From: Azolla caroliniana
Taxonomy: Eukaryota; Plantae; Polypodiophyta
NCBI GenBank assembly: GCA_043228905.1
Contig: JBHGNT010000007.1
Location: forward strand, 21,824,001-21,888,000
Direction: 5' to 3'
Length of the DNA stretch: 64,000 nt
In this document: positions 1 to 29,474 of the stretch, piece after piece
How positions within the stretch are numbered: position 1 is the first letter of the stretch
Layout: each line of letters starts with the position of its first letter
Notes under the pieces: model-generated
The model's database searches: none
What the model saw: the letters and a program-made list of their open reading frames with translations, nothing else
Told to the model about the DNA's origin: nothing
Translations under genes and position numbers: made by a program

Positions 1-161
1 ATCCGGCTCCGTAACCGGGTACTCTTCATCCGGCTCCGTAACCGGGTACTCTTCATCCGGCTTCATGCCGGGTACTCTTCATCATACGGTTCCGTAACAG
101 CCTCCGGGCTTGCCGTCATTCATCTCCGGACATCCCATCCGGAGGGACCGAAATCCCAACA
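1..161 (-). repeat. Copia-1 3' LTR (partial)
   Basis: 161/161 identical to 4815-4975; adjacent PPT GTGAAGGGGGAGTT (162-175, minus) overlaps the pol stop codon. Confidence 0.95.
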
Positions 162-171
162 AACTCCCCCT

Positions 172-3100
172 TCACTTCGGCATGGGATGTCTCTCCAACC
201 CGATCCTCTTCCGGCATGCTTCCAGCTTGTCGGGTGTGAGCACCTTGGTCAGCATATCCGACCCGTTCTCGTCCGTGTGGATCTTCGTCAGCACGAACTC
301 CTTGTCTTCTATCCTTTCCCGGATCCAGTGGTATCTACGCTGGATGTGCTTCGTCCGGGAGTGATAGGCCGCATTCTTCGCAAGGTGGATGGCACTCTGA
401 CTGTCGCAGTAGAGTCGGTACTCCTCCTGCCGGATACCGAGCTCTCTAATGAAGTCCTTCATCCATATTATTTCCTTGCCGGCTTCAACAGCCGCCATGT
501 ACTCCGCCTCCGTGGTTGACAACGCAACCGTCTTCTGCAGCCTCGACTGCCACGAAACAGCTCCCCCTGCATAAGTCATCACATACCCTGATGTGGACCG
601 GCTGGTATCTGCATCAGCCGACATATCCGAATCGGTGAAGCCGTCGAGTTCGGGCTTACCGGAGCCGAATCGGAGGCACACGTTTGCCGTGCCCTTCAGG
701 TATCGGAGTATCCACTTGACCGCGTTCCAGTGCTCTTTGCCGGGATTGCTCATGTACCGGCTCACTACTCCAACTGCATATCCGATGTCCGGTCTCGTAC
801 ACACCATGGCGTACATCAAGCTCCCGACGGCTGAGGCATACGGTACTTTCATCATATCCTCCTTTTCAGCCTTTGTCTTGGGACTTTGCTTGCTGGTCAG
901 CTTGCAGTTTGCCGGGAGGGTCGATCCGACCGGTCTTGCTTCCGACATGTTGAACCGGTGAAGCACCTTCGTCACGTACTTCTCCTGTGACAGCCACAAC
1001 TGCTTCTTCTTCCGGTCCCGGATGATGTGCATCCCTAGTATTTGCCTCGCCGGACCCAGGTCCTTCATTGAGAAGGTTCGGTGAAGAGCCTTCTTCAGCA
1101 TCCGTATCTTGACCTGGTCCCGTCCGACGATCAACATGTCGTCCACGTACAGGAGGAGTATTAGAGAGTCTCCTCCTTCGAACTTCTTCACAAACACGCA
1201 GTGGTCGGACTGCGTTTTGTGGTACCCTTCGTCGGTCATGAAGGAGTCAAACTTCCGGTACCATTGCCGGGGAGCCTGCTTCAGTCCGTAAAGGCTCTTC
1301 TTCAACCGGCATACCAGGTGCTCCTTCCCTTTCTTCTCGAATCCTTCCGGTTGCTGCATGTAGATCTCTTCTTCGAGGTCACCGTGAAGGAATGCCGTCT
1401 TCACGTCCATCTGTTCTACCTCGAGGTCCATGCTTGCCGCTATGCTCAGCACCGTCCGGATGGAGGTCATCTTCACTACCGGGGCAAATATCTCGTCGAA
1501 GTCGACGCCCTTCTTTTGCTGAAACCCCTTCACCACGATCCTGGCTTTGTATCTCGGGGGGTTTCCGGCATCTCCCGGTTTCAGCTTAAACACCCACTTG
1601 TTTCGAAGTGCCCGCTTACCTTTCGGCAACTCCACAAGTTCATATGTGTGGTTCTCATGCAGGGAATCCATCTCCTCCTGCATGGCACTTAACCACCTGC
1701 GACTATGGTTGTCAAGCTTTGCTTCTTCAAAACTTTCCGGCTCCCCCTCGTCGGTTAGCAGCACGTGCTCTGGTTCCGGAAATCTCCGGGGGGCCCTTCT
1801 CTCTCTTAGAGGATATCTCCGTTCCGGAGCTTCGGTAACCGGTTCTTCCGATTCTTCTTCATCCGAATCCATTTCGGGATCGGGGCCGGTTCCGGTATCA
1901 TTTTCATCTTCTTCGGCCGGTTCTGTTTCTTCGCCGTCTTCGGCCGGATCTTCGAGTGTTAACCGGTCCCTTGCCGGTCGGGACTGCTCTTCGTAGAGTC
2001 GATCCTCACCGGTCGACTTGGAGCTCTTCATCTTCTTCTCCGACTCCCAGTCGGCGAGTGTCTTGTCCTCCATGAAGATGATATCTCGACTCCTGAATAT
2101 CTTCTTGTCGACCGGGTCCCATACTCGGTAGCCGAACTCGTCATCGCCGTAACCGAGGAATATGCATGGCCGGGTCTTTGGATCTAGCTTTCCTCTCCGG
2201 TCCTTTGCCACATGCACGTATGCGAGACACCCGAACACCTTCAGATGCCGGTAGGACACTTCCTTACCGGTCCACACTCTCTGCGGCGTGTCTCCGTCCA
2301 AAGGTACTGAGGGTGATCGGTTTATCACATATGTCGCCGTAGACATTGCCTCAGCCCAAAACCCCTTGGGTAATTTCGCATGCGCCAGCATACTCCGAAC
2401 CCTCTCCATTATGGTCCGGTTCATCCTCTCGGCCAGCCCGTTCAGTTCCGGTGTCTTCGGCACAGTAAACTCGAGCCGGATTCCCTTCGAGCGACAGTAC
2501 TCCTGGAACTGCCCCCGGTATTCCCCTCCGTTATCCGCTCGTATCGCTTTCAGCTTCTTGCCGGATTCTCTTTCCACTCTCGCGTGGAGTTCTTTGAAGA
2601 CGGACAATACTTGGTCCTTTGTCTTCAACGGTGCCGTCCACAGTCTTCGGCTGTGATCATCTATGAATGTTACGAAGTACTGGGCTCCGCCATGTGACTT
2701 CGTTTCTACCTGACACACATCGGTGTGCACCAACTCCAATGGTGCGCTACGTCTCGTCGGTGGCCTTGAGTGGAAGGAGGTTCGGTTCTGCTTACCGGCC
2801 AGGCAATCGGTGCACTTCTCCAGGTGCACATGCTTCACTGGGATAAGGTTGTCTTCTGCAAGCCTCTTCATCCCCTTCTCACTCATGTGGCACAGTCTCT
2901 TGTGCCACAGCTCACCGGCAGTGTCGGCTGCCACGTTCAGCTCCTCCGGACATAGCCGGGAATTCATCAGGTACAGCGTGTTGACCTTCCGGGCCCGAGC
3001 CACTATCAGGCTCCCTTTGCTGAACTTCATAACACCGTTCCGGATGCTACCCGTGTAGCCTTCATCGTCTAGCCTCCCGGCCGAAATCAGGTTCAATCGA

Positions 3101-4245
3101 ACCTCCGGAACGTGTCGGACATCCTTCAGCAGCATCTTGCATCCGGTTGATGTCATCAGCCACACGTCTCCTATGCCGGCAATCCGGCATGTACCTTCAT
3201 TTCCCATCCGGACACAGCCGTGCTCACCGGCTATGTAGGATGAGAAGTATTTCTTCTCCGGGGTCAGGTGGAACGACGCTCCGGAATCGACCACCCAGGT
3301 CATCTCTTCACCGGCAAGGTTCAGCTCCCTCTCTTCGGTAATGAGCATTATCTCTTCATCACTTGCCGCGAGTGCCGTCGTTCCTTTCCGGTCCTGCCCT
3401 CGCCGATCCGGACCTCTCCGGTCCGTGGCTCCCCGGTATGCACCGTTTCGCTCCGGTGACTTCTTCGAATCGGTGTCGTCGGCTCCGTAGTCCTTTCGGT
3501 AATGCCGACAATTCTTCCGGAAGTGCCCCGGCTTCCCACAGTGGAAGCATGTGGGTCTTCCTCTTGACTGCGACCGGGTCCCCGACTTCTCCCGTCTTTG
3601 CGGACTCCGGTTCGATTGTCTTCCCCGTTCCGATTCGGTAAGCAGCGCCTTTGAGTCGGAGGCCGGTTCCTTATCTCTCCGACGCGCTTCTTCGTTCAAA
3701 ATACTTGTCTTTACCGTTTGTAGGGACAAGTTATCTTCGGTGCAGGAGGTGCTCAGAGTTACCACCAAGTTTTCCCAGCTTTCCGGCAATGTACACATCA
3801 GTATGATGGCTTGCATTGCATCCTCCAGCGGGAACTTGATCGCCGCAAGCTGGTTCACGAATCCCATGAACGTGCTTACGTGTTCCACCATACTCTCGCC
3901 GTCCCGGTACTTGAGATTCACAATCTTCCTCATCAGGGAGGTCCGGTTCAACGCATTCTTCCTCTCGTAGAGGCCCGACAGCTTCTTCCACATCTCATAT
4001 GCGTTGGTGTCATTCGCCACATGTTGTAGGACGCTTACATCGACATATTGTCGGATCGTCGCTACGGCTTTCCGGTTCAGGAGCTTCCACTCCGACTCAA
4101 GTACTCCCTTCGGTATTTCCGACCTGTCAATCGGTTCGTACAGGTCCCGAACAATCAGAAGATCCTCCATCTTGATCTTCCAGTCGGCGTAATTCTGTGC
4201 ATTCAGCACCATCATTCCCGGCTGCCCGCTGCCGCCGCCTTCCAT
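172..4245 (-). CDS. Copia-1 Gag-Pol polyprotein (~1357 aa from ATG 4245)
   Basis: Zinc knuckle CFHCGKPGHFRKNC, protease WVVDSGAS, GAG-pre-integrase WHKRLCH, integrase (HTDVC, RADNGGEY, NGLAER), RT YVDDM, RNase H (FTDSD, EAEY, RTKHI); no stops. The ORF track start at 4374 lies inside the LTR. Confidence 0.95.
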   Translation of the reverse strand: MEGGGSGQPGMMVLNAQNYADWKIKMEDLLIVRDLYEPIDRSEIPKGVLESEWKLLNRKAVATIRQYVDVSVLQHVANDTNAYEMWKKLSGLYERKNALNRTSLMRKIVNLKYRDGESMVEHVSTFMGFVNQLAAIKFPLEDAMQAIILMCTLPESWENLVVTLSTSCTEDNLSLQTVKTSILNEEARRRDKEPASDSKALLTESERGRQSNRSPQRREKSGTRSQSRGRPTCFHCGKPGHFRKNCRHYRKDYGADDTDSKKSPERNGAYRGATDRRGPDRRGQDRKGTTALAASDEEIMLITEERELNLAGEEMTWVVDSGASFHLTPEKKYFSSYIAGEHGCVRMGNEGTCRIAGIGDVWLMTSTGCKMLLKDVRHVPEVRLNLISAGRLDDEGYTGSIRNGVMKFSKGSLIVARARKVNTLYLMNSRLCPEELNVAADTAGELWHKRLCHMSEKGMKRLAEDNLIPVKHVHLEKCTDCLAGKQNRTSFHSRPPTRRSAPLELVHTDVCQVETKSHGGAQYFVTFIDDHSRRLWTAPLKTKDQVLSVFKELHARVERESGKKLKAIRADNGGEYRGQFQEYCRSKGIRLEFTVPKTPELNGLAERMNRTIMERVRSMLAHAKLPKGFWAEAMSTATYVINRSPSVPLDGDTPQRVWTGKEVSYRHLKVFGCLAYVHVAKDRRGKLDPKTRPCIFLGYGDDEFGYRVWDPVDKKIFRSRDIIFMEDKTLADWESEKKMKSSKSTGEDRLYEEQSRPARDRLTLEDPAEDGEETEPAEEDENDTGTGPDPEMDSDEEESEEPVTEAPERRYPLRERRAPRRFPEPEHVLLTDEGEPESFEEAKLDNHSRRWLSAMQEEMDSLHENHTYELVELPKGKRALRNKWVFKLKPGDAGNPPRYKARIVVKGFQQKKGVDFDEIFAPVVKMTSIRTVLSIAASMDLEVEQMDVKTAFLHGDLEEEIYMQQPEGFEKKGKEHLVCRLKKSLYGLKQAPRQWYRKFDSFMTDEGYHKTQSDHCVFVKKFEGGDSLILLLYVDDMLIVGRDQVKIRMLKKALHRTFSMKDLGPARQILGMHIIRDRKKKQLWLSQEKYVTKVLHRFNMSEARPVGSTLPANCKLTSKQSPKTKAEKEDMMKVPYASAVGSLMYAMVCTRPDIGYAVGVVSRYMSNPGKEHWNAVKWILRYLKGTANVCLRFGSGKPELDGFTDSDMSADADTSRSTSGYVMTYAGGAVSWQSRLQKTVALSTTEAEYMAAVEAGKEIIWMKDFIRELGIRQEEYRLYCDSQSAIHLAKNAAYHSRTKHIQRRYHWIRERIEDKEFVLTKIHTDENGSDMLTKVLTPDKLEACRKRIGLERHPMPK

Positions 4246-4260
4246 TTTCTGCAGCAGTTC

Positions 4261-4272
4261 GCTCTGATACCA
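4261..4272 (-). other. Copia-1 primer binding site (tRNA-iMet)
   Basis: Minus strand TGGTATCAGAGC, 3 nt after the LTR end. Confidence 0.95.
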
Positions 4273-4275
4273 GTT

Positions 4276-4975
4276 TGTTGGGAATCCACGCTTCGATTCA
4301 CCTTCTTCTTCCCGGCCACAACCGAGTAATCGCGATTCAATGCAGCAGAAAATAGGAAATACAGAGAAAGACACGATACACAGGGATTAACGTGGAAAAC
4401 CCTATACGGGAAAAACCACGGGAGTGCAAGACTCCAACTATCACTATGAACAGGGATGTACAATGGTGAAGCTACAAGGCAACAACCTTGTGCTCACTGT
4501 CTTCGCCACAGGCGGCGGCAATACACAGAGGCAACGACCTCTTCCTTACTCTTCCTCTCTCACTCTCTCTCGGCCGCTCTCACTTCGCTTCCTCTCAGTG
4601 GAAAACAGAAAATGAGCAACAACATAAACTGTTTGCCCTAAGTCATATTTATACACGTATGACTTTCGGGCTATTTACAAATATAGCCTCAAGGGCCCTT
4701 AGCAAACATATTCACAAATATGTCCCCGCATCCGGATCTCTCTCCGGGTACATACGTCATCCGGCTCCGTAACCGGGGTCTTCAGCATCCGGCTCTGTAA
4801 CCGGGGTCTTCAGCATCCGGCTCCGTAACCGGGTACTCTTCATCCGGCTCCGTAACCGGGTACTCTTCATCCGGCTTCATGCCGGGTACTCTTCATCATA
4901 CGGTTCCGTAACAGCCTCCGGGCTTGCCGTCATTCATCTCCGGACATCCCATCCGGAGGGACCGAAATCCCAACA
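4276..4975 (-). repeat. Copia-1 5' LTR (700 bp)
   Basis: TG...CA termini with 8-bp inverted repeat; minus-strand TATAAAT near 4650; U3 tandem repeats. Confidence 0.93.
4758..4900. repeat. 27-28 bp tandem repeat in Copia-1 U3
   Basis: About 5 units of CATCCGGCTCCGTAACCGGG(TACTCTT/GTCTTCAG); the same units occur at 1-80. Confidence 0.9.
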
Positions 4976-6054
4976 ATATACACATATGTTTACTTATCAC
5001 ATATATACGATCAAATACGTATATATGTGACCACATATGCCTATATTAAACATATCGTTATATTAAATAGCCACAAATGATGTGATCGAGATACGTAATC
5101 GAGGTATATACCTCTACGCACACGAAACATCCACAAATAAGAGATCATCGTAATACGCAATGGAGGTATTGACCTCTTACGCATACGAGACCAAACGCAT
5201 ATCGTTTACAACAAATCAAGGTATTAAACTCATATGCAAACGTAACATATGTTCGTGAACGTAATACGTAATTGAGGTATTAACCTCGTACGCATACGAC
5301 ACTCATCACATATTATTAATATGTCAAACGAGGTATTGACCTCGTGCACATATGTAAACGTTTTAGATAATCAATTAAAGACCACTACAACATCATTGAC
5401 TTAATGAAAAAAAATTACATATAAACTAAACACATGATTAGATGGGAGAAGAGAGAATAGAAAGAAAATTATGGAAAGAGTTACCGAAGTTCTTTGTTGA
5501 TCGTTGTCTGGATCAAGGCCAACCGCACAACGATCGATCAGCATCAATCAAAAGACAAATGAAAAACAAAGAAACATTAGTACAAAAATCTGATACCAAA
5601 GATTATAGATCATAATACTAATGTAAGCTTAAGATAAGGATAATGAAAAGATAGATAGAAAGGAGAAAGAGAAAGAAGGGTGCCGATCCACCCGACCACC
5701 CCCGAGCGAAGGGATCGAGACGGACTCGAGCCTCGATCGGCGTCCCATACCACCGCCGTGGCGTCGAGTCGTACCTGGTGCTGGCGCGCTTGCTACAAGA
5801 GTTGACCCACCACACGAGCAGAGTCTCGATGTAGTCAAAAGATGATCAAATGAGGGTAGCTAGGCCTCTTATTTATAGCGATACCCAAGGCCCCCAGGCA
5901 AGTTCACACTTGACCTAATGGGTTGTCTCAATCCCGAGGATAAAAGTAATCCTCCCCTTCTTTACACTCTCATTTAACACTCACACTTATCCACGTGTAT
6001 AGATTACTACGGTAAATTCTTACCACGGGATATTATATGGTCATGCCCGTAACA
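4976..6054 (-). mobile_element. Older LTR element 5' end (LTR ~5600-6054, PBS, leader) into which Copia-1 inserted
   Basis: Minus-strand TGGTATCAGA at 5589-5598; minus-strand start TGTTACGGG at 6054; minus-strand CTATAAAT at 5871-5878; inner LTR end degenerate. Confidence 0.6.
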
Positions 6055-6219
6055 ATACTTTTGGATTAACTATTTATTATGAGGTAAATAAACATTAAAA
6101 AAGGGAAAAAACAAAAAACACACACAACAATGTTTGAATAACATTCGCATTTGTTTTCCAACGTAGGAAAACGAATGTTATGCTAGACGAACATGAATTT
6201 TATGTACTATGGTATTAGG

Positions 6220-6726
6220 TGTCACAATACATTGACATAAAATGCATAGTTGATGCAGACTGAACTTGCAACCTCACATCAACAAGATGTCATGCACAAC
6301 CATTTTGATATGAGCATGTATTTATATATAATGTACTTGATATAGAAATATTCTCTAGTCACATACCTTTAGAAAGTTTTAGAACCATAAGGTTTTAGAA
6401 GGTTCTAGAATACTCTCGAGAATATTCTAATGCATTTTAGTTCACATTATAAATACTTGTAACTTCCTTGGTCCCTTTGAAGGGATCCAACACAAGTTAT
6501 TGACACATCAATCTAATATTATCATTTCATGCTATATTGTCTCCTTTATCTTCATATTCGTCCTCATGCTCTCCAGTTAATCCTAACTTCCTAAGTTCAT
6601 AGTCTCGTCACTCACAACTTCTAAAGTCCTTAGTCTTGTCACTTCTAGTTCCATGTTTGTAGCCTTATCAGTCATAGCCTTGTCATCTGTGCTCCATCGT
6701 AGTCGATGGTTGGTGTGCTCGTTACA
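6220..6726 (+). mobile_element. Solo LTR with 5-bp TSD
   Basis: TGTCAC...GTTACA flanked by TTAGG (6215-6219 and 6727-6731); TATAAATA at 6448. Confidence 0.8.
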
Positions 6727-7399
6727 TTAGGGGCGAACTTTGTGAGTGGAATGCATGATTCTCAGATTTCTATTAGTTTGCATTTCCCACGTTATGCTAT
6801 ATGTAAGAATAGATTGACACATGCGTGATATTTTCAATATTCGAGAATAGAGAAATGAGCTCAATAATATTATTAAAACTATTTGTTTTGTAGAATAAAA
6901 ATTAATTAATTCACTAAAAAAAGAACAATCACTCATTAATGCATTATAAAAATATGATTAGTGTTAACTCTCATATTTACTGTCAATAAAAAAATGAGGA
7001 GTTTATGAACCTTTATTTTATTTTATTTACTTATTATTTACTAATGATTTTTTTCTTTTAATTAAATTTTTTTTTATATCATATTATAGAAATGTGATCA
7101 GTGTCAAGTCCCCTTTTAAATGTTTTTAAATGCCAAAAATAAATATTCACAACATTTATTTATTTATTTTTCCAAAATAAAGCTACTTTCCCATTAGTTA
7201 GGAAGGATTATTACAAGGAGACTATACAAGGAAGCTTATACACAAAACGGGGAATCTCCCTCAGATCAAGATCAAGAAAATGAGACTACTTACATAGTTT
7301 TTCAAACCGACTACCTAAAGTAAGTAGATACCTATACCTAAAAGCAGTGGCCTTTAGTGTCGGCCAGAATGAGTCGACTCCCGGGGCCTACATCGAAGG

Positions 7400-9128
7400 G
7401 AGGGAGGCGTGAAAGAAGGAAACAACCATCGTGGGGGCTGGTAGTTCCACCTCGGTCCACTTTCTCCTAGCGTCACCAGAGGCGTGTTTCGCCATTTCAG
7501 CCAAAAGCGCAACCGGTAGTGGCCACGTCATTAGAGTGGTTGCAAACCTCATCTAATTGCCATCGTAGGCAACTGATAAGCGCGAACCATATATCCATGA
7601 TCACTTCCTTTGGGGGTTGTACCCGATCTTGGAAAACCTTTAAGCATCGTGCTTTCCAGACATACCATAAGGTGAAGCCCGTGATCAACCTCCAAATTTC
7701 CAGGAACCTAGGGGATGCGGACAACAAGTCTCTCTCGAAGCGGATCTTTCCGATTTGCCCTCCCGTGCATACATAACACCAAGTATCCGCATTAAAGGCG
7801 TCCGTCCACCTATCAGTCGAGTGGTCAATCCATGCCGCAACACTCCACGAGGTTGTTCCAACCACTTCACATGCCGCAAGGAAGCGTGTGACTCTGTCCC
7901 ATACCTTTTGAGCTTGAGGGCAATCCCAAAGACAGTGTCTCAGAGACTCAATGGGTGAAGAGCAAAGTGGGCAACCTATCGGGCCGCCCCTTTTACCAAG
8001 CCATTCCCCAACAGGAATCACATTGTGACCAATCTGCCACCAAAAGAGCTTGATTTTTTCAGGCATGTGGAGACGCCAGAGACCCTTCCAAAAGGTAATG
8101 AGCACCTCGTCAGGGATGCCCAATGTTCACCATCCATTACGAATGGGACCATCGAGCTGCAATTGTAAAGTCTGCCCCAATTTAATGCTATATTCAAAGA
8201 AGTGGCAGAGTTTGTCACCATGTTTCCACCTGAAATCCCCTGGGTCCCATTCTAGTTCAAGTAGGGTATGAGAACCATATACCCATAACTTCCAATGGGG
8301 TTCCACCTTAGTAACATATGGGTCTGTCTTCCAAATGTTATCAACCTCCGCCACCATTCGAACCGGAAGCCAAGTGCCCCTACTTTGCCTCTCCCCAAAA
8401 AATGTATCTCTTCCCAATCGACTCACACCCTTCACCAACTTAACCATTCCAACCTCATCAAAGAGACCGAACCATGCATCTTCTCGCACATTCCCCAACG
8501 GAATCCTATCAACTGCCTCAGCTATCAGGCTCTGCATCTTCATAACTCCCTTGAGGGGAGGGAATGGGTCCTCCTGGGCTCCCCTTGGAGAAACCATGCG
8601 TCTCCAATCGTCTATAGAGTGAAGCCCTGTCTGCGCCAACTTTCCCCATGCTAGGCCCTTAAGTTGCCCTAACATCATGTCATCGCTTGTTCGCACCTGA
8701 GGATTCCAAAATAAAGGTTGTCTAGCCCATTCGAAGAGACACATGAGTGTCTCTAGGGTGTGCTTGACCAAATGTTGTCGCACATGACACCACGCCCGCA
8801 AGATGGAGTTTGTTACCCTGTCCTCCTGTTGACAAGCCATCTTGGGTTGGATTCCACTCGTGCAACACCAATTGAAGGAGATAGGCCAAGGCCTACCATA
8901 CTTGGGAGTCCCTGCTTGCAACCGATTGCGAAGTAGTACCTTCCAACACCCCTTACTTGGGAGAAGGCAACGAACCACCAATTTGGCCAGCAATGCATGG
9001 CTCTGTGTTAAGGGGTCTATGAGGCCAAGCCCCCCTTTGGCTCATGGCTGCGATAACCAACGCCATGACACTCTGGCAACAACCATTGGGTTGTCCTTAC
9101 CGGACCATATAAATCCCCTGATGGCAAC
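7400..9128 (-). pseudogene. LINE-A ORF2 C-terminal part (post-RT region and zf-RVT)
   Basis: KGGLGLID motif near 9010-9040; ORFs 8127-8993 and 7497-8123 with KIKLFWW and CPLC..ESLRHCLWDC; internal stops and frameshift. Confidence 0.85.
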
Positions 9129-9481
9129 TGTCAAGATTCGAACTCTTGACATGACCATGTTATAATCTAGTATTATGAGTTAACCAAGATATCTAGTACT
9201 AGTTATGTATGTAATTGGTCCTTATTATTTTGCTAGCATCATGTGCATAGTTGCTCCCTTGTAGTATTTACACTTGGCACATGCATGCATACCTACATGC
9301 TCTATTGTAGATTCACATGCGTGCAACAAGTATGCATGCCATGTAGTATAAATAGAGGAGTTCACCTTGAAGGAATCCAAGGTGAACAACACCCGTTATG
9401 GAGTCTTTCCTTTAGTACTATCTTCTTTCTTGTCCATTTGGTTATCTTCTTGGTTGTCTCTTGAGTTTATGATCCGTGACA
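9129..9481 (+). repeat. Gypsy 5' LTR
   Basis: TGTCA...TGACA termini; TATAAATA at 9347; direct repeat of 14066-14418. Confidence 0.96.
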
Positions 9482-9483
9482 GT

Positions 9484-9494
9484 TTGTTCACCTT
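9484..9494 (+). other. Self-priming-type primer binding site
   Basis: TTGTTCACCTT is the exact reverse complement of LTR 9379-9389 (AAGGTGAACAA); no TGG tRNA-type PBS. Confidence 0.8.
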
Positions 9495-9531
9495 CCCATC
9501 CTCATAGCTCTCCCTCTCATAAGCCATAGCT

Positions 9532-10548
9532 ATGTCCGACTCAACTAGTGAGTTAGGCCAAATAATGGTAGCCTTACGACAACTACAGCTTGAAAATGAA
9601 ACTCTTCGAAATTCTTTACAAGAACTTCAAGTCGGTACCTCCCTATCCTCACAACCCCCGAACCCTAGTCTCCCACAACAACCTAGCCTAGAGCCCGATC
9701 TTCTCCCAACATCTAGCCTAACTTCGTCACAGTTTCTTGAGCCTAAGGTTAGCCTCCCAGAAAAATTTGATGGAACGAGGTCGCGTTTCCAAGGGTTCAT
9801 CAACCAAGTTCGACTTATCATTCGGCTACAACCTCAACGTTATGAAGATGGTCTTCGACAAGTCGGCCTTGTGGGCACCCTTCTCTCCGGTCCGGCCCAA
9901 GCTTGGTTTGCACCATTGGTAGAAACCTCATCACCTTTATTGGAGGACTTTCCCGCCTTCCTCGCCGAGTTAGAGGCCACATTTGGAGAGACGGACCGAC
10001 GACGTACAACTCTTAACAAGATTTATGCACTCGAACAAGGTTCACGTGTAGCTTCGGTCTATGCTTCCGAATTTCGACAACTAGCATGTGACGTCAATTG
10101 GGATGATCAAGCTTTAGCTGATCACTTTCGGCGCGGTCTTCGAAGCAATGTCAAGAATCTTCTCTTAAACTTTCTGGAGCCCACCTCGTTATCCCAAGCG
10201 ATTTCACAAGCAGTCCATTGTGACAATCGTCTTTTCGAATTTTGCCAAGAAGAGCGCCGAACTTGGGTTCCACCTCATTCACTTCCACGCCACGCCCCGG
10301 TCATACAACCCCAAGCATCCTCACACTCGCCTACTTCGGCAAATGCTCCTGTCCCCATGGAAATTGATCAAGCCCGATTTTGGCCATTGACTGATGCCGA
10401 ACGACAATTTCGGCGGGCTAATGGCTTGTGCATGTATTGTGGCGCCTCCGGTCATGTCGTTCGCCATTGTCCTAGGAGTACTCGCCCACAATTCCATCGA
10501 GCTAACAGACCCCAACATCCGGAAAACGACATCGTTCGGTTGCAGTAG
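9532..10548 (+). CDS. Gypsy Gag (PEG10/sushi-like capsid plus zinc knuckle), 338 aa
   Basis: LPEKFDG, LSGPAQAW, PVPMEID, CMYCGASGHVVRHC. Confidence 0.92.
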   Translation: MSDSTSELGQIMVALRQLQLENETLRNSLQELQVGTSLSSQPPNPSLPQQPSLEPDLLPTSSLTSSQFLEPKVSLPEKFDGTRSRFQGFINQVRLIIRLQPQRYEDGLRQVGLVGTLLSGPAQAWFAPLVETSSPLLEDFPAFLAELEATFGETDRRRTTLNKIYALEQGSRVASVYASEFRQLACDVNWDDQALADHFRRGLRSNVKNLLLNFLEPTSLSQAISQAVHCDNRLFEFCQEERRTWVPPHSLPRHAPVIQPQASSHSPTSANAPVPMEIDQARFWPLTDAERQFRRANGLCMYCGASGHVVRHCPRSTRPQFHRANRPQHPENDIVRLQ

Positions 10549-10571
10549 GAGCCAAGCAACTGGACATCTCC
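10521..10571 (+). promoter_or_regulatory. -1 programmed ribosomal frameshift signal (gag to pol)
   Basis: G GAA AAC at 10521-10527, 6-nt spacer, 10-bp stem 10534-10543/10556-10565, loop GGAG can pair with CTCC at 10568-10571; the -1 frame is open into pol. Confidence 0.75.
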
Positions 10572-13500
10572 CGTCGCCCACATTCTCTTGGTTCCATTGC
10601 CGGACCATCAGGCAATTTCACATTGGAGGTATGGCTTTCGTTTAACTCTAGTTCCATTCAGTCTGTTGCTTTACTTGATTCTGGGGCATCTTCTTGCTTC
10701 ATCGACGTCGCGTTTGCCCAAGCACATGGCGTACCTGTCGTTGGCCTCTCAAAACCCATTCCAGTTGAAGCCATCGACGGGTGCGTCCTCTCGTCAGGTG
10801 CAATTACTCAAGCTACAATCCCATTAGGGCTTCGGGTGGGCTCACACCAAGAGGAGCTCACCTTTTACTTCATCGCATCTCCTCGACATCCGATCGTCTT
10901 AGGACTAACGTGGTTGGAGGCGCACAATCCAATAGTGGATTGGTGCAACCGCTCGATCACATTTAGCAAGCCAAGATGCTTGTGCAAAAGTATGAAGGTA
11001 AATTCAGTTTCCTATCCTTCGGAGACGGTCGACTCCGAATTGACTACCCCATCATCCGTCCAGGATGGGTTTGTTTATGGCACTATTTCTAACACACTCC
11101 ATGTTATTCCCGAAAAATACCAACACTTCTCCGACGTATTTGAAAAATGTAATGCTGATCGGTTGCCTGAACACCGGCTCTACGACTGTCCGATTGATCT
11201 TCAAGAAGGTGCGTGTCCACCCTTTGGTCCTCTATATGCGTTGTCTGCACCAGAGTTGAAGGCCCTTTGTGTGTATCTCGATGAGAACCTCGAGAAAGGC
11301 TTTATTCAACCTTCTAAGTCACCAGCCGGGGCCCCCATTTTATTTGTGAAGAAGAAGGACGGCTCTCTACGCTTATGCGTTGACTACCGAGGTCTCAACA
11401 AACTCATTGTGCGCAACCGCTATCCGCTACCTCTGATCCCCGAACTCCTTGATGGGCTCCGAGTTGCGCATGTCTTCTCCAAAGTTGATCTGCGTGGAGC
11501 GTACAATCTAGTATGCATCAAGCCGGGGGATGAATGGAAAACCGCATTTCGAACACGGTATGGGCATTTCGAATACAAGGTAATGCCTTTTGGTCTTACT
11601 AATGCTCCTGCAGTTTTTCAACATATGATGAACGATATTTTCCGGGAATATCTTGATCTTTTTGTTGTCATTTACCTCGATGATATTCTCATTTTCTCGC
11701 CAAACATGGAGGAGCACACTCGCCAAGTCCGATTAGTTCTTGCCAAACTTCGTGAGCATGGCCTTTATGCCAAAGGCGAGAAATGCGAGTTCGACCGTAC
11801 CTCGATCGAATTTCTGGGCTACATCATCTCGTCCACTGGCATCACCATGGATATGAAGAAGGTCTTTGTCATTCAGGCGTGGGCGACTCCAAGGCGACTT
11901 AAAGATGTGCAATCCTTCCTCGGCTTCGCGAATTTTTACCGTCGCTTCATCAAGGGGTTTTCCACCCTAGCACAACCTCTTATCGCTCTCACCCATAAAG
12001 GCACTCCATTTTTATGGACCTCGGAGGCACAAAATGCGTTCGACTCACTCAAACACGCATTCATCACTGCCCCGGTGCTGCTACATGCCAACCCCACAAA
12101 ACCCTTCCAAGTCGAAACCGATGCCTCTGACTTTGCCATTGGCGCCATTTTATCCCAAGTAGACGACAACAATCTAATGCACCCAGTGGCTTACTATTCC
12201 CGAAAATTTACGGCATCCGAAATCAATTATCCCATTTATGACAAGGAGCTTGCTGCTATCATTGCTGCCTTTGAAGAATGGCGACCCTACTTGGCCGGCG
12301 CACAACATCGTGTCCAGGTAGTGACTGATCATAAAAATTTAGTTTATTTTTCCACCACTCGTACTTTGAATCGAAGGCAGGCCCGTTGGTCGACATTTCT
12401 CGCCGACTACGATTTTGAGATCGTATTTCGACCTGGTGGCCAACATGGGAAGGCTGATGCCCTTTCTCGCCGAGCTGACCTTGCACTCCACCCTGGGGAT
12501 GCTGTTTATGCTCAACAATCTAGACGTTTGTTGAAACCCGACCAATTGCATCTGTTTGCCACTTGTATGTTGTAGGATGATTCTTTACTCCAACAAATCA
12601 CTGATGCATCCAAGACCGATGCGTTCGCCAACGAGATTCGAGATAGTCTGCAAAACCCCTCCAAGGCGACCAAAAGGAAGGATCTTGACACCTTCACCAT
12701 ACAAGAGGGTTTGTTGTTCCGAGATCATCTCTTATACGTCCCAGAGGGCCCATGTCGCACCCGGGTGTTGCGGGAATGCCACGATGACCCACTTGCAGGT
12801 CATTTCGGGGTCGCGAAAACCCTCGAGCTAATCTCTCGGGGGTATTGGTGGCCACAACCATGGAAGCTGGTCAAAGAATACATAAAGAGTTGTGAGGTTT
12901 GTGCTCGCTCCAAAGCCATTCATCATCGGCCATACGGCTTACTACATCCGCTTCCATGTCCTCGTCGTCCTTGGGCCTCTACCTCTATGGACCTGATAAC
13001 TGATCTACCCTTGGTCAATAGCTATGACTCAGTGTTGGTCGTTGTCGATCGGTTTACGAAGATGGCTCACTTCACTCCATGCTCCAAAACCATTTCCGGA
13101 GAAGGAATGGTGCATCTCCTACTCAACAATGTAGTACGCTTGCATGGACTCCCCGATGATGTCATCTCGGATCGCGGACCCCAGTTTGTCTCTCACTTCT
13201 GGCAGCGCCTGCTACAAACTTTAGGCATCTCTGTCAAGTTGTCCTCCGCTTATCACCCCCAAACTGACGGGCAAACGGAGCGTGTCAACCAAATCCTTGA
13301 GCAGTATCTTCGGTGCTCGGTTAGTTACCAACAAGATGATTGGGTCAACTTACTTTCGCTCGCGGAATTCGCCTACAATAATTCTCTCCATGCATCGACT
13401 GGCGTCACTCCCTTCTTTGCTAACTACGGTTTACATCCTCGCTTCAACATTTCCCTTCCTACCACTTCCGTGAACCCTTCGGCGGAGGATCGTGCCCGCA

Positions 13501-14102
13501 TTTTGGAAGAAGTACATCATGATTTATCCTTGGAGCTTAGTCTTGCTAGTGAACGATACAAGAAGCAGGCTGATCGCCATCGATCTTCCACTCCACACTT
13601 TGTCGTTGGAGACATGGTCTGGTTGTTACGTCGACACATCTCTACTACTCGTCCATGTGTGAAACTTGATTACAAGAAGTTGGGACCATTCCGTATCATC
13701 GAGTGCATCAATCCCGTCGCCTTCCGGCTCGCCCTTCCATCCCACTTCCGGATTCATGATGTTTTTCATGTCTCCCTCCTCGAACCCCATTATGCTTCAC
13801 AACTCCCAGGACGTCAAGCCCCACCACCACCACCTGTGCAATTGACGACAGGGGAGGAATACGAGGTCGACCAAATCCTTGACTCGCGTTGGCACCGTCG
13901 ACACTTGCAATACCTCGTCATATGGAGGGGTTACCCCATGTCTGAGACCACATGGGAACCATCGGCAAATTTACAAAATGCCCCAGAGGTCGTCCAAGAT
14001 TTTCATCACCGATATCCCCACAAACCAGCGGCCGATTTGGGAAGGTGGCGTAAGAGGGGGGATAATGTCAAGATTCGAACTCTTGACACGACCATGTTAT
14101 AA
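10521..14102 (+). pseudogene. Gypsy Pol (PR-RT-RNase H-IN-chromodomain) with one in-frame TAG at 12573-12575
   Basis: LLDSGAS, YLDD, ETDASD, HDDPLAGHFG, SMDLI, SDRGPQF, DGQTER, GPF, chromodomain YEVDQILDSR...YLVIWRGY...TWEP; ORFs 10623-12575 and 12711-14102 share a frame. Confidence 0.92.
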
Positions 14103-14418
14103 TCTAGTATTATGAGTTAACCAAGATATCTAGTACTAGTTATGTATGTAATTGGTCCTTATTATTTTACTAGCATCATGTGCATAGTTGCTCCCTTGTA
14201 GTATTTACACTTGGCACATGCATGCATACCTACATGCTCTATTGTAGATTCACATGCGTGCAACAAGTATGCATGCCATGTAGTATAAATAGAGGAGTTC
14301 ACCTTGAAGGAATTCAAGGTGAACAACACCCGTTATGGAGTCTTTCCTTTAGTACTATCTTCTTTCTTGTCCATTTGGTTATCTTCTTGGTTGTCTCTTG
14401 ACTTTATGATCCGTGACA
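14066..14418 (+). repeat. Gypsy 3' LTR
   Basis: 353-bp direct repeat of 9129-9481, preceded by the PPT. Confidence 0.96.
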
Positions 14419-16971
14419 GCAGCCTTAATCGCATGCAAACCTGCCGGGTCCATAATCCAACATGAGACCGAGTACCACATGGTGGCGAGCATCACTTGGT
14501 TCGCAATAAGGACCCTACCAGCGAAGGATAATTTAGATCTACTCCATTGGTTCAGCTTCTTGCTTATTTTGGCTTGCACAAGGGACAATTGTGCTCCCTT
14601 GGGAATCGCCCTCCCCATAGTAAATCCTAGATACTTGAACGTCGTCCCGTTAGGGACCCATGTAAAATCGGCATGGGGATGCCACCTTGGTTTCTCTTGT
14701 TCACTGAACCAAAGGCCTTGGGTTTTATCCCAATTGACCTTGGCACCAGCAGCCTGACAAAAGTCCTCGACTAAATATTTAGCCTGCTGCAAATTCTCCT
14801 CATCACCTTGTAGGAAGAGGACCGTATCATCAGCATATTCGGATAGAAGAAGATCTTCACTCGCATTAGGGATGGGCAATCCCCTCAATCCGTTGCTTGG
14901 GGCTTGTAAGTAGGCAGAGAATGCCTCGGTTACGAATAGATAAAGATATGGGGCTAGGGGACAGCCTTGCCTCACTGAGCGTTGTAGTTTGAAGGAAGGT
15001 CCCCTAGTACCAGCGATCAACACACTACTGGTAGCTGCAGTCCGGTAGAGGGCAGAAGTGCATTTCCTCCATTTTTGGGGTAGGCCCATAGCTCTCATCA
15101 CATTTTCCAAGAAGGGCCAAAGGACCCTATCGTATGCCTTCTCGAAGTTAAGCATCAGAATAGCTGAGCTCGAGATGGACTGATCAGCCAATGCCATGGC
15201 TTCTCAGAGAAGCAACACATTATCAAAGATACACCTGCTCCTAATAAACCCTGTTTGATTCTCATGTATAATGTATGGTAAGAACCTTGCTAACTGTCGC
15301 GCGAGGACTTTTGCTAGAATCTTGTAAATCGTGTTAAGGATCGTTATAGGACGCCATTGGCGCAACTCCAGGCTTCGCTCTGCCGCTTTGGGAATGAGAT
15401 AGATCATCCCCTCAGCCAGCCCGGTCGGCATTGTTCCTGAGGACCAAATCTCTTGAACCTCGACTTCCAAGGATGGGATAACAATGTCCCAATGGATCTT
15501 GAAAAAATCTCGTGAGAGACCATCGGGGTCGGGGCATGCTCCTCTCCGCAAATCCCTGAGTGCCTCCGAGAGTTCTATACGAGAAATGGGGCTATCGAGC
15601 ACCATTTCCATCTCTTGGGATACCTTGGGGTGAATGCAAGTCATCACCCTATCAGCCAGCTCTACGTTTTGCCTCATATGCACAGGTGCAAGTAGGTCTT
15701 GATAGTATTGCGTTGCCATATGCAAAATCTCATCCTTGTCCTCCGTAATTGAGCCGTCTGGTTTACACAACTGTTGTATACGTCCACCACCACCCTTGGG
15801 AGCCTTGTAATGAAAGAAATGTCGGTTGACCCTATCGTCTATTCTAGCCCACCATGCCGCGGTCCTTCGAAATAACATTCGGTTCCTCTCCTCCGTCCTT
15901 TCCTGAACCTTCATCTTGGCTTCCTCTAGCTTAGATCTAGACCAAATGCAGCCAGGGTCCGTCTGTAGCAAGCGTTGCACTGCCGCAACGGACTTCCTTA
16001 ATTTTATTTCAATGGCACTGACCTGTTGGAGGGCCCGCTTGGTCTCTTGCTGTAAAAATGAGGAGGAGAGGGCCAGTTTTTTCTGCAAATCCTCACTAGC
16101 CGAGTCTCTTACAATGGTCTCCCCCCAAATACTCTGTAGACCCGCCTTCACCTCTTCACTCTTCATGATCTTTGTGGGGATTTTCATGTTGAGACTCCCG
16201 TGGGTGCCGTTGGGTGGGTTAAGGTCTAGTCTCATCAGTTGGTGATCAGAGAAGGTAAGGCCTGCCAAGATAGCGAAGGAACCCCCAACTCCTCAAGGGA
16301 CGAGCTGATGTATATGCGGTCTAACCGTGCAGGGCTACCACCCCTAACATTCACGGCGGCTCTCAAGAAGTGTGGCAAATGTGAGCATCTCCTAAGGGAA
16401 TAGCCCCATGTATCTTTCACCCCGATTTTGCCAATTAAGAGACCCCATGAGTCCAGCTCCGCACCATGAATTGGTCTTTGGGTCCCCCCTTTCCTGTCAC
16501 CCAGATGTTCAGTCATGTTGAAATCACCAGCCATTATCCATGCCTCTGCATCAGGTAATGTGGTCGCTAACATCCTCCAGAAGATTGCTCTCTCGAGGGA
16601 TGAGTTAGGGGCATAAATGTTTAGCACCCCAATCTGTAGGTGATTCCATTTCAAAAGCACATATAAAGCCCTACCCGCAACCAGCGTGCCATGTGATGTT
16701 ACTTCATATCGGGCCTTATCACTGATCGAGATGCAAACCCCTCCCCTTCTTTGAAGGTCACCCTGTGCCGCCGACCACCACGTGGTCCACCCACCCGACA
16801 AGGGGTTTACTATGCTCTGAATTCTCTCTTCAGAGAGATGGTGTTCCTACAACAACAATATATCGATCTTACCCCCAATATTAGAGCGATTCAACTCCTC
16901 TCGAAGTCTTTTGCACCTTGGTGTTGCCGGCCTCCACTAAGGCCATGTACATTCCATGTTAAGATCCTCAT
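14419..16971 (-). pseudogene. LINE-A ORF2 N-terminal part (APE endonuclease plus RT), frameshifted
   Basis: Start MRILTWNVHG at 16971; YAPN, AGDFN, RLDRIY, SDH; WRPITILN, NQTGF, FEKAYD, RQGCPLAP, YADD; split over three ORFs. Confidence 0.9.
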
Positions 16972-17066
16972 CCGAAAACGGTGAGGTTGACGCCCATGTC
17001 CGGGCTGACCCCCATGTCATGGGGCAAACTAGCGCCTATTTCTGGTGCTATGGGCTCCCACGAAGG

Positions 17067-17794
17067 CTAAAGAGCCCCTAAGGGGTTCTCGGCTTGTTGA
17101 TCCCGGCCCACTTCAAATAGTTCTTGCGATACATTTTGGCTCCTGAGTGGCTGTCCAACCTGCATCCCTTTATCCCAAATAGTCCTCACCAAACCAGGTG
17201 ATGGTTTGCTTGTACTTCCCTTCCCTTTGCCCTTGATCTTGCCCGTCCGGATCCACGATTTCAATAATCTGAGGTCACCACCACATTCACGTTCCATCAT
17301 GGGGGAGGCCTTAGCCAACATCTCCTCTGGGGTGGAAAGTACACGATGTGGTTGCAACTCCATCGGGGAGGGGAACATGAGATGAGGATTGTGTGGGGGA
17401 AGGGACCAAGAGTCACAAGGGGACAATGTTGTTGCCAACGCTTCTGGGTTGTCCTCTCCTAGCCCTTGGAGCAATGTAAATCTGTTGGTAGCCCTCCCCT
17501 TTAGGTCGTGTGATTCTGCACTCCTTGAGAGGATCTTCACCCGTTTCGAGGGTTGCTCGTCCGCACTTGCTGGTGACACTATAGTGGGACTATGGTCAAA
17601 GGGAAGGCCTTGAGAGGGGGGGGAGGCCGCACCTAGGCTTCCAGGTTTCCCCTTCTTCTTGACGGGCTGCCAAGGAACCTCGTCACCCTTGGTTGACACA
17701 GTCTTCCTAGAGTCTTGAGGTCCCGAGCTTCCCTTTCCAGTCTTATGAGGACAATTCTTAGCTAGGTGTCCTTTCTGTTTGCAAATAAAACACT
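17067..17794 (-). pseudogene. LINE-A ORF1 3' part
   Basis: Reads CFICKQKGHLAKNC...VSTKGDE in frame with ORF 17067-17699. Confidence 0.85.
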
Positions 17795-18095
17795 TGTCGA
17801 ATACAAGTGTATAATGGACGTATTCACACTATCCCTTTTGTATAGCTCAAGTTTGGGCCATTTGTGTAATTAGCATAAATGGTAGTTGCCCTAAGTCGGT
17901 CACTATATATAGTGACCTTGTAACCTTTTTGTAAGGTTGGGTGTTGTATTATTTCTTCTATTGAATAGAAAGTCTTTTGTGCCTCTCTCTCTCTCTCTCT
18001 CTCTCTCTCCCTATCTCAGAAACTGTCATACGCAGGTACTCAACCCTAAAAGAATGCTTCTTGATCTTCCGCATTGACGGCCCTTGCTTCCAACA
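17795..18095 (+). repeat. Copia-2 5' LTR (301 bp)
   Basis: TG...CA; differs from the 3' LTR by one substitution and one TC microsatellite unit. Confidence 0.96.
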
Positions 18096-18791
18096 TCTGG
18101 TATCAGAGCCTGCACAGCATTCGGTCCTTCAATCCGCTGTCGGCCGCCGTCTCAGCCTGCAAAGCATTCGGTTTCCTGCGTCATTCGAAGAAGAGAGAAG
18201 AAGAAGAAAAACGAGGCTTCCATCTCATCGCGTTAGATCATTTTCGCTTGGAGTAAGCCAGCCGGTTGTACTCTGCTCCTTGTGATCGTAACCACTCGAG
18301 GTGAAATCCCCTTGTGCAACATTGACACGATCGTGCTCCACTCGGTTAAACGGCATCCGAAGAGGTCAACAAACGCTGCTCGCCGCTCATTGTAACCACT
18401 CGGTGCAGATCGGTCTCAAGACAACAACCCCAATTCGTGCTTCATCCGGCTGATCGACATTCGAGAGGATCAGTTGGATCCGTCTCTCTCGTCACTGCAG
18501 TCACCCGAAGCAGAATCGGTCCAGACAATCGGTTTCAATAATCGGTATTCGGCATATATATCCGAAACGAACCGGGCTCACTCCGACTCGGCAACATTCG
18601 GGAAGACCAGTCGGTTCTGTCCCTCAAGTTACCGGAGTCAATTCGAGCAAGTTCAACAATACATATATCTGAAGCCGAACCGACTCGGGTTCAAATCCGA
18701 CTAGAACGATATCGGGTGAGCCAACCGGCTGCACTCCAACAAGGTTCATAGTCAACTCCGAACCGAGCTTCGTCAACCGAAACCGAATTTG

Positions 18792-22805: not shown

Positions 22806-22999
22806 AGCCGGACACAGCGCAGGATGGTTTCCGACAACCGACATCAGTTCCTTAATGATCGGCTTCGACACTTCCGACCCGACCAGTTCGGTCTTCTGCC
22901 TTCGGACCCTGCCGACTCGAACAAAAACTGATATGTCCGAGAACCTAGGTTCATACCTGTAATCTTAGATAACCCATGTATACGCCCATTACGGGGGAG

Positions 23000-23298
23000 T
23001 GTCGAATACAAGTGTATAATGGACGTATTCACACTATCCCTTTTGTATAGCTCAAGTTTGGGTCATTTGTGTAATTAGCATAAATGGTAGTTGCCCTAAG
23101 TCGGTCACTATATATAGTGACCTTGTAACCTTTTTGTAAGGTTGGGTGTTGTATTATTTCTTCTATTGAATAGAAAGTCTTTTGTGCCTCTCTCTCTCTC
23201 TCTCTCTCTCTCCCTATCTCAGAAACTGTCATACGCAGGTACTCAACCCTAAAAGAATGCTTCTTGATCTTCCGCATTGACGGCCCTTGCTTCCAACA
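23000..23298 (+). repeat. Copia-2 3' LTR (299 bp)
   Basis: Direct repeat of 17795-18095. Confidence 0.96.
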
Positions 23299-27885: not shown

Positions 27886-28026
27886 ATGGTTACATCTCGT
27901 GTGGAAGAATTAGAGGGTTTCCATGTCGTCTTGTCTGAGTCAATTAGGTTTATCGGTTTCATATCCGAGATCACAACGCCCCGACAAGTGGCCGGTCGTT
28001 TCACGGTCAGCAAGGCCTCTTGCCAG
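27886..28026 (+). CDS. DHNAT: DHNA-CoA thioesterase-like (PaaI/hotdog), exon 1
   Basis: ATG to ...IGF...VAGRFTVSKASCQ, 47 codons; donor CAG/GTAATG, phase 0. Confidence 0.85.
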
Positions 28027-28084
28027 GTAATGGTACCTTCCATCCCTTCTCATTCACTCCTTTTGGCCATCTAAGAATCAGGGC

Positions 28085-28558
28085 TTTAGGGTTTAGGGTT
28101 TTTATGGATCAGTTGGATATGATCCATTTCATTCCATGGTGCTAAACCCTGGACACAGACATTCAAATTACACAGAAACCCTAAAACCAACAATAGCAGG
28201 GGGTTTAGGGTTTATGGTTTTTATGGATCAGTTGGATATGATCCATTTCATTCCATGGTGCTAAACCCTGGACACAGACATTCAAATTACACAGAAACCC
28301 TAAAACCAACAGTAGCAGGGGGTTTAGGGTTTAGGGTTTTTATGGATCAGTTGGATATGATCCATTTCATTCCATGGTGCTAAACCCTGGACACAGACAT
28401 TCAAATTACACAGAAACCCTAAAACCAACAGTAGCAGGGGGTTTAGGGTTTAGGGTTTTTATGGATCAGTTGGATATGATCCATTTCATTCCATGGTGCT
28501 AAACCCTGGACACAGACATTCAAATTACACAGAAACCCTAAAACCAACAGTAGCAGGG
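28085..28558. repeat. 119-bp tandem repeat x4 in DHNAT intron 1
   Basis: TGGATCAGTTGG at 28105, 28224, 28343, 28462; units nearly identical. Confidence 0.95.
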
Positions 28559-28599
28559 CTCCCTTACCACCACCACCACCATCACTGCCACTACTCATA

Positions 28600-28695
28600 C
28601 CCCTAACCCTAACCCTAACACTAGCCCTAGCCATAACCCTAACCCTAACCCTACTCCTAATACTAACCTTAAAAACTAACACTCAACCTAACCCT
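28600..28695. repeat. Degenerate (CCCTAA)n telomere-like tract
   Basis: CCCTAACCCTAACCCTAACACTAGCCCTAGCCATAACCCTAACCCTAACCCTAC. Confidence 0.8.
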
Positions 28696-28730
28696 TGCCA
28701 TCCAAGGATAATTGACCGCTTTCATTGCAG

Positions 28731-28922
28731 CCTTTTAATGTGCTTCACGGAGGGGTGTCGGCACTGATCGCGGAGGCGCTCGCCAGTGCCGGGGCATTCC
28801 TAGCATCCGGTAAACAACGTGTGGCGGGGGTCGAGCTCAACATCAACCACTTGAAAGCGGCGCCCATTGGGACCGAAATCTTTGTATCGGCCGAGCCTGT
28901 TCATACCGGACGAACATTACAT
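28731..28922 (+). CDS. DHNAT: DHNA-CoA thioesterase-like, exon 2
   Basis: TTGCAG acceptor; PFNVLHGGVSALIAEALAS...RVAGVELNINHLK; donor CAT/GTAGGC. Confidence 0.92.
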
Positions 28923-28967
28923 GTAGGCATGATTGTGGCCCTGATCAAAGATCGATGTTAGGGTTTC

Positions 28968-29250: not shown

Positions 29251-29474
29251 TTGACAAATGCATCATGATATTAGGGGCGAACATTATGTGTGGAATGCAT
29301 GATTCTCGGCATTCTTTTGGTTTTGCTTTCCCCAAGTTTTGTTGTATATTTAGGTAAAACCTTAAAAGAGGGTGTGGGGTTCCATGGGTCATCCATTACA
29401 TGGTTTGTGGTTTTTTGTTTGTTCTTCTCCTTGATTTAGTTTTGTGACCCCGTGTTTTTTTGTCATGTATGTAG

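What the first reader, a model, noticed from the sequence alone, without database searches (positions are those of the whole stretch)
9347..9494. tRNA-independent self-priming design in a plant chromovirus
Seen: no TGG tRNA site follows the 5' LTR. Instead 9484-9494 (TTGTTCACCTT) is the exact reverse complement of 9379-9389 (AAGGTGAACAA), which begins 32 nt after TATAAATA at a C/A dinucleotide, a plausible start site. The flanking R and U5 segments (CACCCGTTATGGAGTC and GA(C/G)TTTATGATCCGTG) can extend the stem with G-U pairs. Known: S. pombe Tf1 primes with the first 11 nt of its own RNA, whereas typical seed-plant LTR elements use tRNAs. Inference: this element self-primes.
Basis: partly seen in the sequence, partly recalled or inferred. 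Interest (0 to 1): 0.8.

Follow-up and report, generated by a model that had tools for sequence, protein, structure and literature searches.

The report
Fern self-priming retrotransposon with decoy hairpin
A young jumping gene, likely in a fern genome, has a primer site that matches the predicted first 11 letters of its own RNA instead of a tRNA, a layout already predicted for moss relatives, and related elements also keep a matching hairpin just upstream that would hide the spare copy of this primer at the RNA's far end.

Summary
Observation confirmed. The element (9129-14418; 353-bp LTRs, gag, -1-frame pol, chromodomain) has no TGG site; 9484-9494 is the exact reverse complement of 9379-9389, 32 nt after the TATA box. 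In 28 of 40 evaluable metagenome relatives the 11-mers match perfectly, and they change together in several lineages. Self-priming is therefore likely, but it is not new: Neumann et al. 2019 predicted it for 83% of 1,500 plant Tcn1 elements, and this scan noted it in two moss genomes. Two things are extra. (1) The host looks like a fern; the papers read found Tcn1 only in mosses and spikemosses. It occurs in 22 of 23 elements and changes in step with primer and PBS. It can form only in RNA that carries U3, so it would mask the 3' copy of the primer or set the poly(A) site. No start site was mapped and no function was tested.

The parts
9124..9128 (.). Left target-site duplication (GCAAC); the right copy at 14419-14423 differs at one base
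9129..9481 (+). 5' LTR, 353 bp, TG...CA; 4 differences from the 3' LTR (9152, 9232, 9377, 9465)
9347..9354 (+). TATA box; TATAA begins 32 nt before the primer in 22 of 23 elements, 31 nt in one
9360..9387 (+). U3/R hairpin over the predicted start site: 5' arm 9360-9371 holds a 9-nt copy of the PBS, 3' arm holds the first 9 nt of the primer; 12 bp perfect in the 3' LTR (14297-14324), one mismatch (9377) in the 5' LTR
9379..9389 (+). Predicted first 11 nt of the RNA = predicted self-primer
   Evidence: start site inferred from TATA spacing and C|A, not mapped
9395..9402 (+). R arm of the second stem (pairs with 9473-9480)
9473..9480 (+). U5-end arm of the second stem
9482..9483 (+). 2-nt spacer between LTR end and PBS, 2 nt in all matched relatives; likely the dinucleotide that integrase trims
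   Evidence: role inferred
9484..9494 (+). Primer-binding site, no TGG, complementary to 9379-9389
9532..10548 (+). gag (Retrotrans_gag, DUF4939, Ty3_capsid)
10521..10527 (+). Candidate -1 slippery site GGAAAAC near the gag end; such a motif found in 24 of 29 rows tested
   Evidence: frameshifting inferred
10506..14102 (+). pol in the -1 frame: protease, RT, RNase H, integrase, SH3, chromodomain; interrupted by one stop codon at 12573-12575 in this copy
13860..14012 (+). Chromodomain with the three aromatic-cage positions filled (Y, W, Y)
14053..14065 (+). Polypurine tract before the 3' LTR
14066..14418 (+). 3' LTR with the perfect hairpin at 14297-14324

Best explanation
This is a recently inserted Ty3/gypsy chromovirus of the Tf1/sushi (Tcn1-like) group, likely in a fern, that likely primes reverse transcription with the predicted first 11 nucleotides of its own RNA, and whose conserved hairpin over the start site would hide the second copy of that primer at the RNA's 3' end. 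Steps: (1) shown: LTRs, TATA box, 11-nt complement of the PBS, second stem, U3/R hairpin, and their joint changes across relatives; (2) inferred: RNA starts at 9379, inside the hairpin, so the 5' end lacks the upstream arm and pairs with the PBS (predicted pairing 0.95 here), helped by the R/U5 stem; (3) inferred from Tf1: RNase H cuts after base 11 and RT extends from there, copying the 2-nt spacer first; (4) inferred: at the 3' end the RNA carries U3, so the same 11-mer folds back on the upstream arm and cannot compete for the PBS; plus-strand copying of the primer would re-template the PBS each cycle, whereas the U3 arm must follow by selection, which fits its looser match.
For: Exact 11-nt complement at LTR+2, unique in the window once TATA spacing is required. 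28 of 40 evaluable relatives match 11/11 and 35 of 40 have the best match 31-34 nt after a TATA box (many rows are copies of the same families). On 21 aligned elements, primer:PBS plus second stem are 96.6% paired with 18 two-sided changes; 0 of 500 shuffles reach that; slid controls 32-53%. The T/C change at primer position 5 sits in three separate well-supported Gag clades, each with matching PBS and U3 arm. Five primer types each pair best with their own PBS and own U3 arm. Hairpin -14 to -24 kcal/mol in 22 of 23 elements, at most 1 of 300 shuffles as stable; 91.7% paired, 17 two-sided changes, 0 of 500 shuffles on covariation score. RT core 53-71% identical to frog elements and 61% to an Ustilago element; no seed-plant name among the named top hits; Gag look-alikes in Chordata and Basidiomycota. 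5-bp TSD, overlapping gag/pol frames, cage-type chromodomain and self-priming are the listed Tcn1 traits. Tf1 mechanism as summarised in PMC7175516.
Against: No RNA run was available, so the start site is unmapped. The third duplex of the Tf1 'pretzel' (3' of the PBS) was not found in any of 23 elements. The second stem is weak in 5 of 23. One related group (L061; Gag 45-46%) keeps a 10-nt primer match but has no hairpin, so the hairpin is not required for self-priming in general. With 26 nt of U3 added, the PBS still wins the primer in 9 of 23 predicted folds, including this copy's mismatched 5' LTR, so the hairpin is a local, kinetic mask rather than an absolute one. 5 of 40 evaluable loci show no match near a TATA box, and 39 of 79 loci could not be scored. 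Shuffle control (a) ignores relatedness. Clade membership rests on similarity and traits, not on a tree with reference Tcn1 sequences. The fern call rests on one gene and a tree without mosses or hornworts.
Confidence: 0.8

Rival explanations
1. Self-priming is right, but the hairpin's job is 3'-end formation: in the 3' LTR it shortens the path between an AT-rich signal (the TATA box doubling as poly(A) signal) and the cleavage site, so that R extends far enough past the 11 removed bases for minus-strand transfer.
For: The hairpin covers -19 to +9, directly behind TATAAATA, in 22 of 23 elements; stem-loops that set poly(A) spacing are recalled from HTLV-1 and HIV (no call). Any such hairpin must use the primer as one arm, so the covariation fits equally well.
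Against: No poly(A) site is known. L052 keeps a hairpin of different position and loop that still pairs the primer, which fits masking better than fixed spacing.
Confidence: 0.3
2. The hairpin is a by-product: RT template switching at a quasi-palindrome keeps copying one arm onto the other, with no function.
For: Such repair would also give two-sided changes; the hairpin is absent in L061.
Against: Arms keep stable mismatches, G-U pairs and a bulge in whole clades; the hairpin is kept in two geometries over 48-92% Gag identity while the rest of R/U5 does not align.
Confidence: 0.15
3. RNA starts upstream of the hairpin, or a host tRNA or tRNA half primes at this site, and the LTR match is a relic.
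For: Start site not mapped; no host tRNA set could be compared (no genome held; no tRNA in the window).
Against: No TGG; at least five PBS types that each track their own LTR; fixed TATA spacing and C|A in 21 of 23. The two copia elements of the window serve as contrast: the one checked has an ordinary TGGTATCAGAGC site and no LTR complement.
Confidence: 0.08

Closest known systems
Plant Tcn1 clade of chromoviruses (REXdb; Neumann et al. 2019, PMC6317226; Novikova et al. 2010, PMC2864245)
   Same: 5-bp TSD, gag and pol in overlapping frames, chromodomain with aromatic cage, no tRNA PBS, at least 10 nt LTR complement starting 0-5 bp after the LTR (their own criterion), closest named kin in fungi and vertebrates.
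   Different: Reported from mosses and Selaginella only; PCR of 26 ferns and horsetails found none. This host groups with Adiantum. Length 5,290 bp is just under their range (5,466-9,444). No U3/R hairpin in the passages read.
Tf1/Tf2 of Schizosaccharomyces pombe and the Tf1/sushi group (via PMC7175516 and bioRxiv 2022.12.06.519325)
   Same: 11-nt primer complementary to the PBS, a second duplex between the sequence 5' of the PBS and LTR sequence behind the primer, chromodomain integrase.
   Different: The duplex 3' of the PBS was not found here; Tf1 has one ORF, this element a -1 frame arrangement; a PBS-like arm in U3 is not mentioned for Tf1 in the passages read (primary Tf1 papers were not held).
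TAR lineage of Ty1/copia (Houba, Osr-1)
   Same: Plant LTR elements predicted to self-prime (89% of 203).
   Different: Other superfamily; shows that self-priming is predicted even in seed plants.

Membership tests
Ty3/gypsy chromovirus | Domain order PR-RT-RH-INT with C-terminal chromodomain, LTRs, TSD, PPT | tested here: met
Plant Tcn1 clade | Chromodomain with aromatic cage (group I) | tested here: met
   Y, W, Y at the cage positions in alignment with CDY chromodomains; definition
Plant Tcn1 clade | No tRNA PBS; LTR complement of 10 nt or more within 0-5 bp of the LTR end | tested here: met
   criterion
Plant Tcn1 clade | 5-bp TSD; gag and pol in overlapping frames | tested here: met
   TSD 4 of 5 identical; frames; traits
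Plant Tcn1 clade | RT-RH-INT clusters with Tcn1, PpatensLTR and SM-Tcn1 in a tree | tested here: inconclusive
   No reference Tcn1 or seed-plant chromovirus sequence was available; named neighbours are frog, Ustilago, Closterium and Cetraspora proteins
Tf1-type self-priming | Primer and PBS complementary and covarying | tested here: met
Tf1-type self-priming | Primer is the actual 5' end of the RNA | not testable with these tools
   Only contigs were offered; inferred from TATA spacing
Tf1-type self-priming | Duplex between the sequence 5' of the PBS and LTR sequence behind the primer | tested here: met
   18 of 23 elements at most 5 of 200 shuffles; two-sided changes
Tf1-type self-priming | Duplex between the sequence 3' of the PBS and the LTR (third 'pretzel' duplex) | tested here: not met
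   0 of 23 elements better than 18 of 200 shuffles; only the first 12 nt after the PBS were tested
Tf1-type self-priming | RNase H cleavage after base 11 | not testable with these tools
   RNase H domain present; cleavage known for Tf1

The most novel reading that the evidence does not exclude
A fern lineage of Tcn1-like elements carries a positional switch: transcription starts inside a palindrome, so the self-primer is free only at the RNA's 5' end, while every U3-containing form (the RNA's 3' end, and both cDNA strands) locks the duplicate primer in a hairpin with a decoy PBS. This would answer how self-primed elements avoid interference from their second R copy.
Probability: 0.4. Interest if true: 0.62.

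Novelty: new variant of a known kind. Interest (0 to 1): 0.42.

Why it matters
Self-priming has been shown by experiment only in yeast Tf1 (per the papers read); for plant Tcn1 it was a single-sequence prediction, and one paper found no sign of it in SM-Tcn1. The covariation here is comparative support in plants and likely extends the clade to ferns, which bears on its proposed transfer from fungi. The three-way covarying hairpin is a concrete, cheaply testable element that may explain how the duplicate primer in the 3' R is handled.

Tried and rejected
No whole genome was held, so no in-genome copy set or host tRNA set. Viral contigs gave no relative. Sequencing runs: no RNA holder listed; the eight layings were contigs only and cannot show a start site; they showed T at 9377 in nearly all contig depth of seven runs and listed no change inside primer or PBS, but the lists are filtered and cut. 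A first free search for inverted repeats gave spurious 8-12-nt hits in loci with long leaders; replaced by an LTR-end anchor, whose motif was chosen. MAFFT misplaced L052 by three columns and the L024 group's hairpin by one, which lowers the counts; anchored folds handle them. The third pretzel duplex was sought and not found. The RT tree has no outgroup and cannot place the clade. Four primary or review papers on Tf1 were not held. Paper searches for Tcn1 in ferns and for a hairpin at the start of self-primed elements listed nothing that describes either; the library lacks most subscription papers, and Additional files 1 and 3 of PMC6317226 were too large to read and may hold relevant PBS data. 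Earlier scan findings near or like this sequence: none.

Full report
Element. The finding lies in the 5' LTR of a 5,290-bp LTR retrotransposon at 9129-14418. The LTRs are 353 bp, begin TG and end CA, and differ at 4 positions; the flanks GCAAC and GCAGC are a 5-bp target duplication with one difference, and a purine tract precedes the 3' LTR. Gag (9532-10548) is followed by pol in the -1 frame with protease, RT, RNase H, integrase, SH3 and chromodomain; one stop codon interrupts pol in this copy. The chromodomain keeps Y, W and Y at the cage positions. A GGAAAAC-type motif near the gag end recurs in 24 of 29 rows tested, so the frame change is probably natural. The element sits inside a LINE on the minus strand.

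Observation. 9484-9494 is the exact reverse complement of 9379-9389; the site starts 2 nt after the LTR and has no TGG. Two of 20,000 shuffled LTRs hold such a match; 133 of 63,500 pseudo LTR ends in the window do, but only the real site among 126,960 does so 30-34 nt behind a TATA box. RNA from 9379 folds with the 11 pairs plus a stem 9395-9402:9473-9480 (z -2.9, 1 of 200 shuffles). The neighbouring copia element at 17795-23298 has an ordinary TGG site and no LTR complement.

Relatives. A Gag alignment (54 sequences) found 428 related stretches in metagenome contigs, of which the best 80 gave 79 loci. Anchoring on an LTR-end motif rather than on the inverted repeat, 40 loci could be scored, 5 had too little upstream DNA and 34 had no motif within 1 kb. 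Of the 40, 28 match 11/11; 7 more have 1-3 mismatches with the best match behind a TATA box; 5 show nothing. Many are copies of the same families. In a set of 23 (window plus 22 loci picked by eye as non-redundant), TATAA begins at -32 in 22 and -31 in one, and the -1/+1 pair is C|A in 21. On the MAFFT alignment of 21 of these, primer:PBS and the second stem are 96.6% paired; position 5 appears as U-A (13), C-G (4) and A-U (3), position 8 as A-U (17) and U-A (3); no shuffle of 500 reaches the score and slid structures give 32-53%. On the Gag tree the C variant falls in three separate supported clades, and three more primer types occur elsewhere, so the changes are repeated events, not one inherited change. 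This is what self-priming predicts, since plus-strand copying of the primer would re-template the PBS (inference from the general retroviral cycle).

The PBS 9-mer also occurs at 9360 and 14297. With the primer it forms a 12-bp hairpin, perfect in the 3' LTR (-18.9 kcal/mol, z -5.4) and with one mismatch in the 5' LTR; laid contigs from seven runs read T at 9377, as in the 3' LTR. The hairpin is present in 22 of 23 elements (-14 to -24 kcal/mol; at most 1 of 300 shuffles), with 17 two-sided changes, including pairs near the loop outside the primer. Each of five primer types pairs best with its own U3 arm. L052, with a wholly different primer, has the hairpin in another geometry; L061 lacks it. 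The arm is looser than the PBS (6-10 shared letters). Because the predicted start lies inside the hairpin, the 5' end of the RNA lacks the upstream arm (predicted primer:PBS pairing 0.72-0.97), while RNA containing U3 can close it; the whole 3' LTR folds it. With U3 added to the 5' region, the hairpin wins in 14 of 23 predicted folds and the PBS in 9, so it is a competitive local mask. I favour masking of the 3' primer copy; setting the poly(A) site is the main rival and is not exclusive.

Host and clade. The window holds a CFAP61 gene, so the host has flagellated cells; its long exon is 47% identical to two Adiantum proteins, 39% to Ginkgo and 34-36% to Selaginella and liverworts, and groups with Adiantum at 98/100 (no moss or hornwort row). 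A fern distant from Adiantum is the likely host. The element's RT is 53-71% identical to frog elements and 61% to an Ustilago element; Gag look-alikes are in Chordata and Basidiomycota; no named seed-plant hit is among the top 120 of either search, though most hits are unnamed.

What is known. Neumann et al. 2019 (PMC6317226; passages; Additional file 5) predict self-priming for 83% of 1,500 Tcn1 elements from moss and clubmoss and 89% of TAR copia elements. Novikova et al. 2010 (PMC2864245; passages and sections 6-7) found Tcn1 in mosses and Selaginella, none by PCR in 26 ferns and horsetails, and saw no priming signal in SM-Tcn1. Novikov et al. 2012 (PMC3350952; passages) define group I chromodomains. 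The Tf1 mechanism and three-duplex structure were read in PMC7175516 and bioRxiv 2022.12.06.519325 (passages); the primary papers were not held. PMC3601003 (passages) mentions hairpin priming but no U3 arm. The third Tf1 duplex was not found here. Earlier scan notes report the same priming layout in two moss genomes and in fungi, protists and fishes (unchecked); none with hairpin, decoy and fern as words.

Verdict. Real feature, likely Tf1-type self-priming (about 0.9 for priming alone, 0.8 for the whole reading as worded), a known kind. The additions are comparative covariation in plants, a likely fern host and a conserved decoy hairpin that I did not find described in the searches named. Interest 0.42.

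Noticed in passing
window 7497-9041 and 14379-17828 (-): A LINE (zinc knuckle, endonuclease, RT, zf-RVT pieces) is split by the chromovirus; a copia element at 17795-23298 abuts or interrupts its first ORF.
   Followed up: partly
window 17795-23298 (+): Young copia element, 301/299-bp LTRs, single 1,361-codon open frame, three bases between LTR and a TGG-type PBS.
   Followed up: partly
window 1-4976 (-): Copia element with a 1,404-codon open frame; its LTRs hold 27-bp GC-rich tandem repeats; runs off the window.
   Followed up: no
window 9280-9338: Overlapping CATGCA palindromes in U3 (4 hits), resembling RY elements bound by B3 factors (recalled); could point to spore or embryo expression.
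   Followed up: no
window 9390-9397 and relatives: A CAC(C/A)AGT motif directly behind the primer is nearly invariant across relatives, even where the primer changes; it lies at the predicted cut site. This copy has C in place of A at 9394.
   Followed up: partly
window 9335-9405: Contig depth over TATA-hairpin-primer is several times that over the PBS in laid runs, suggesting many solo LTRs or families share this core; depth is not a copy number.
   Followed up: no
window 53193-56918 (-): CFAP61 exons, one of 496 codons without a stop; used to place the host near ferns.
   Followed up: yes
window 45391-45813 (-): Glycine-rich RNA-binding protein (RRM plus Gly tail) exon.
   Followed up: no
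L050, L061, L071, L078: A sister group with a 385-790-nt leader, about 10-nt primer match, same TATA spacing and no U3 hairpin.
   Followed up: partly
window 27962-33420: Tandem arrays of 119, 154 and 202 bp and an AT-rich microsatellite at 28949-29288.
   Followed up: no
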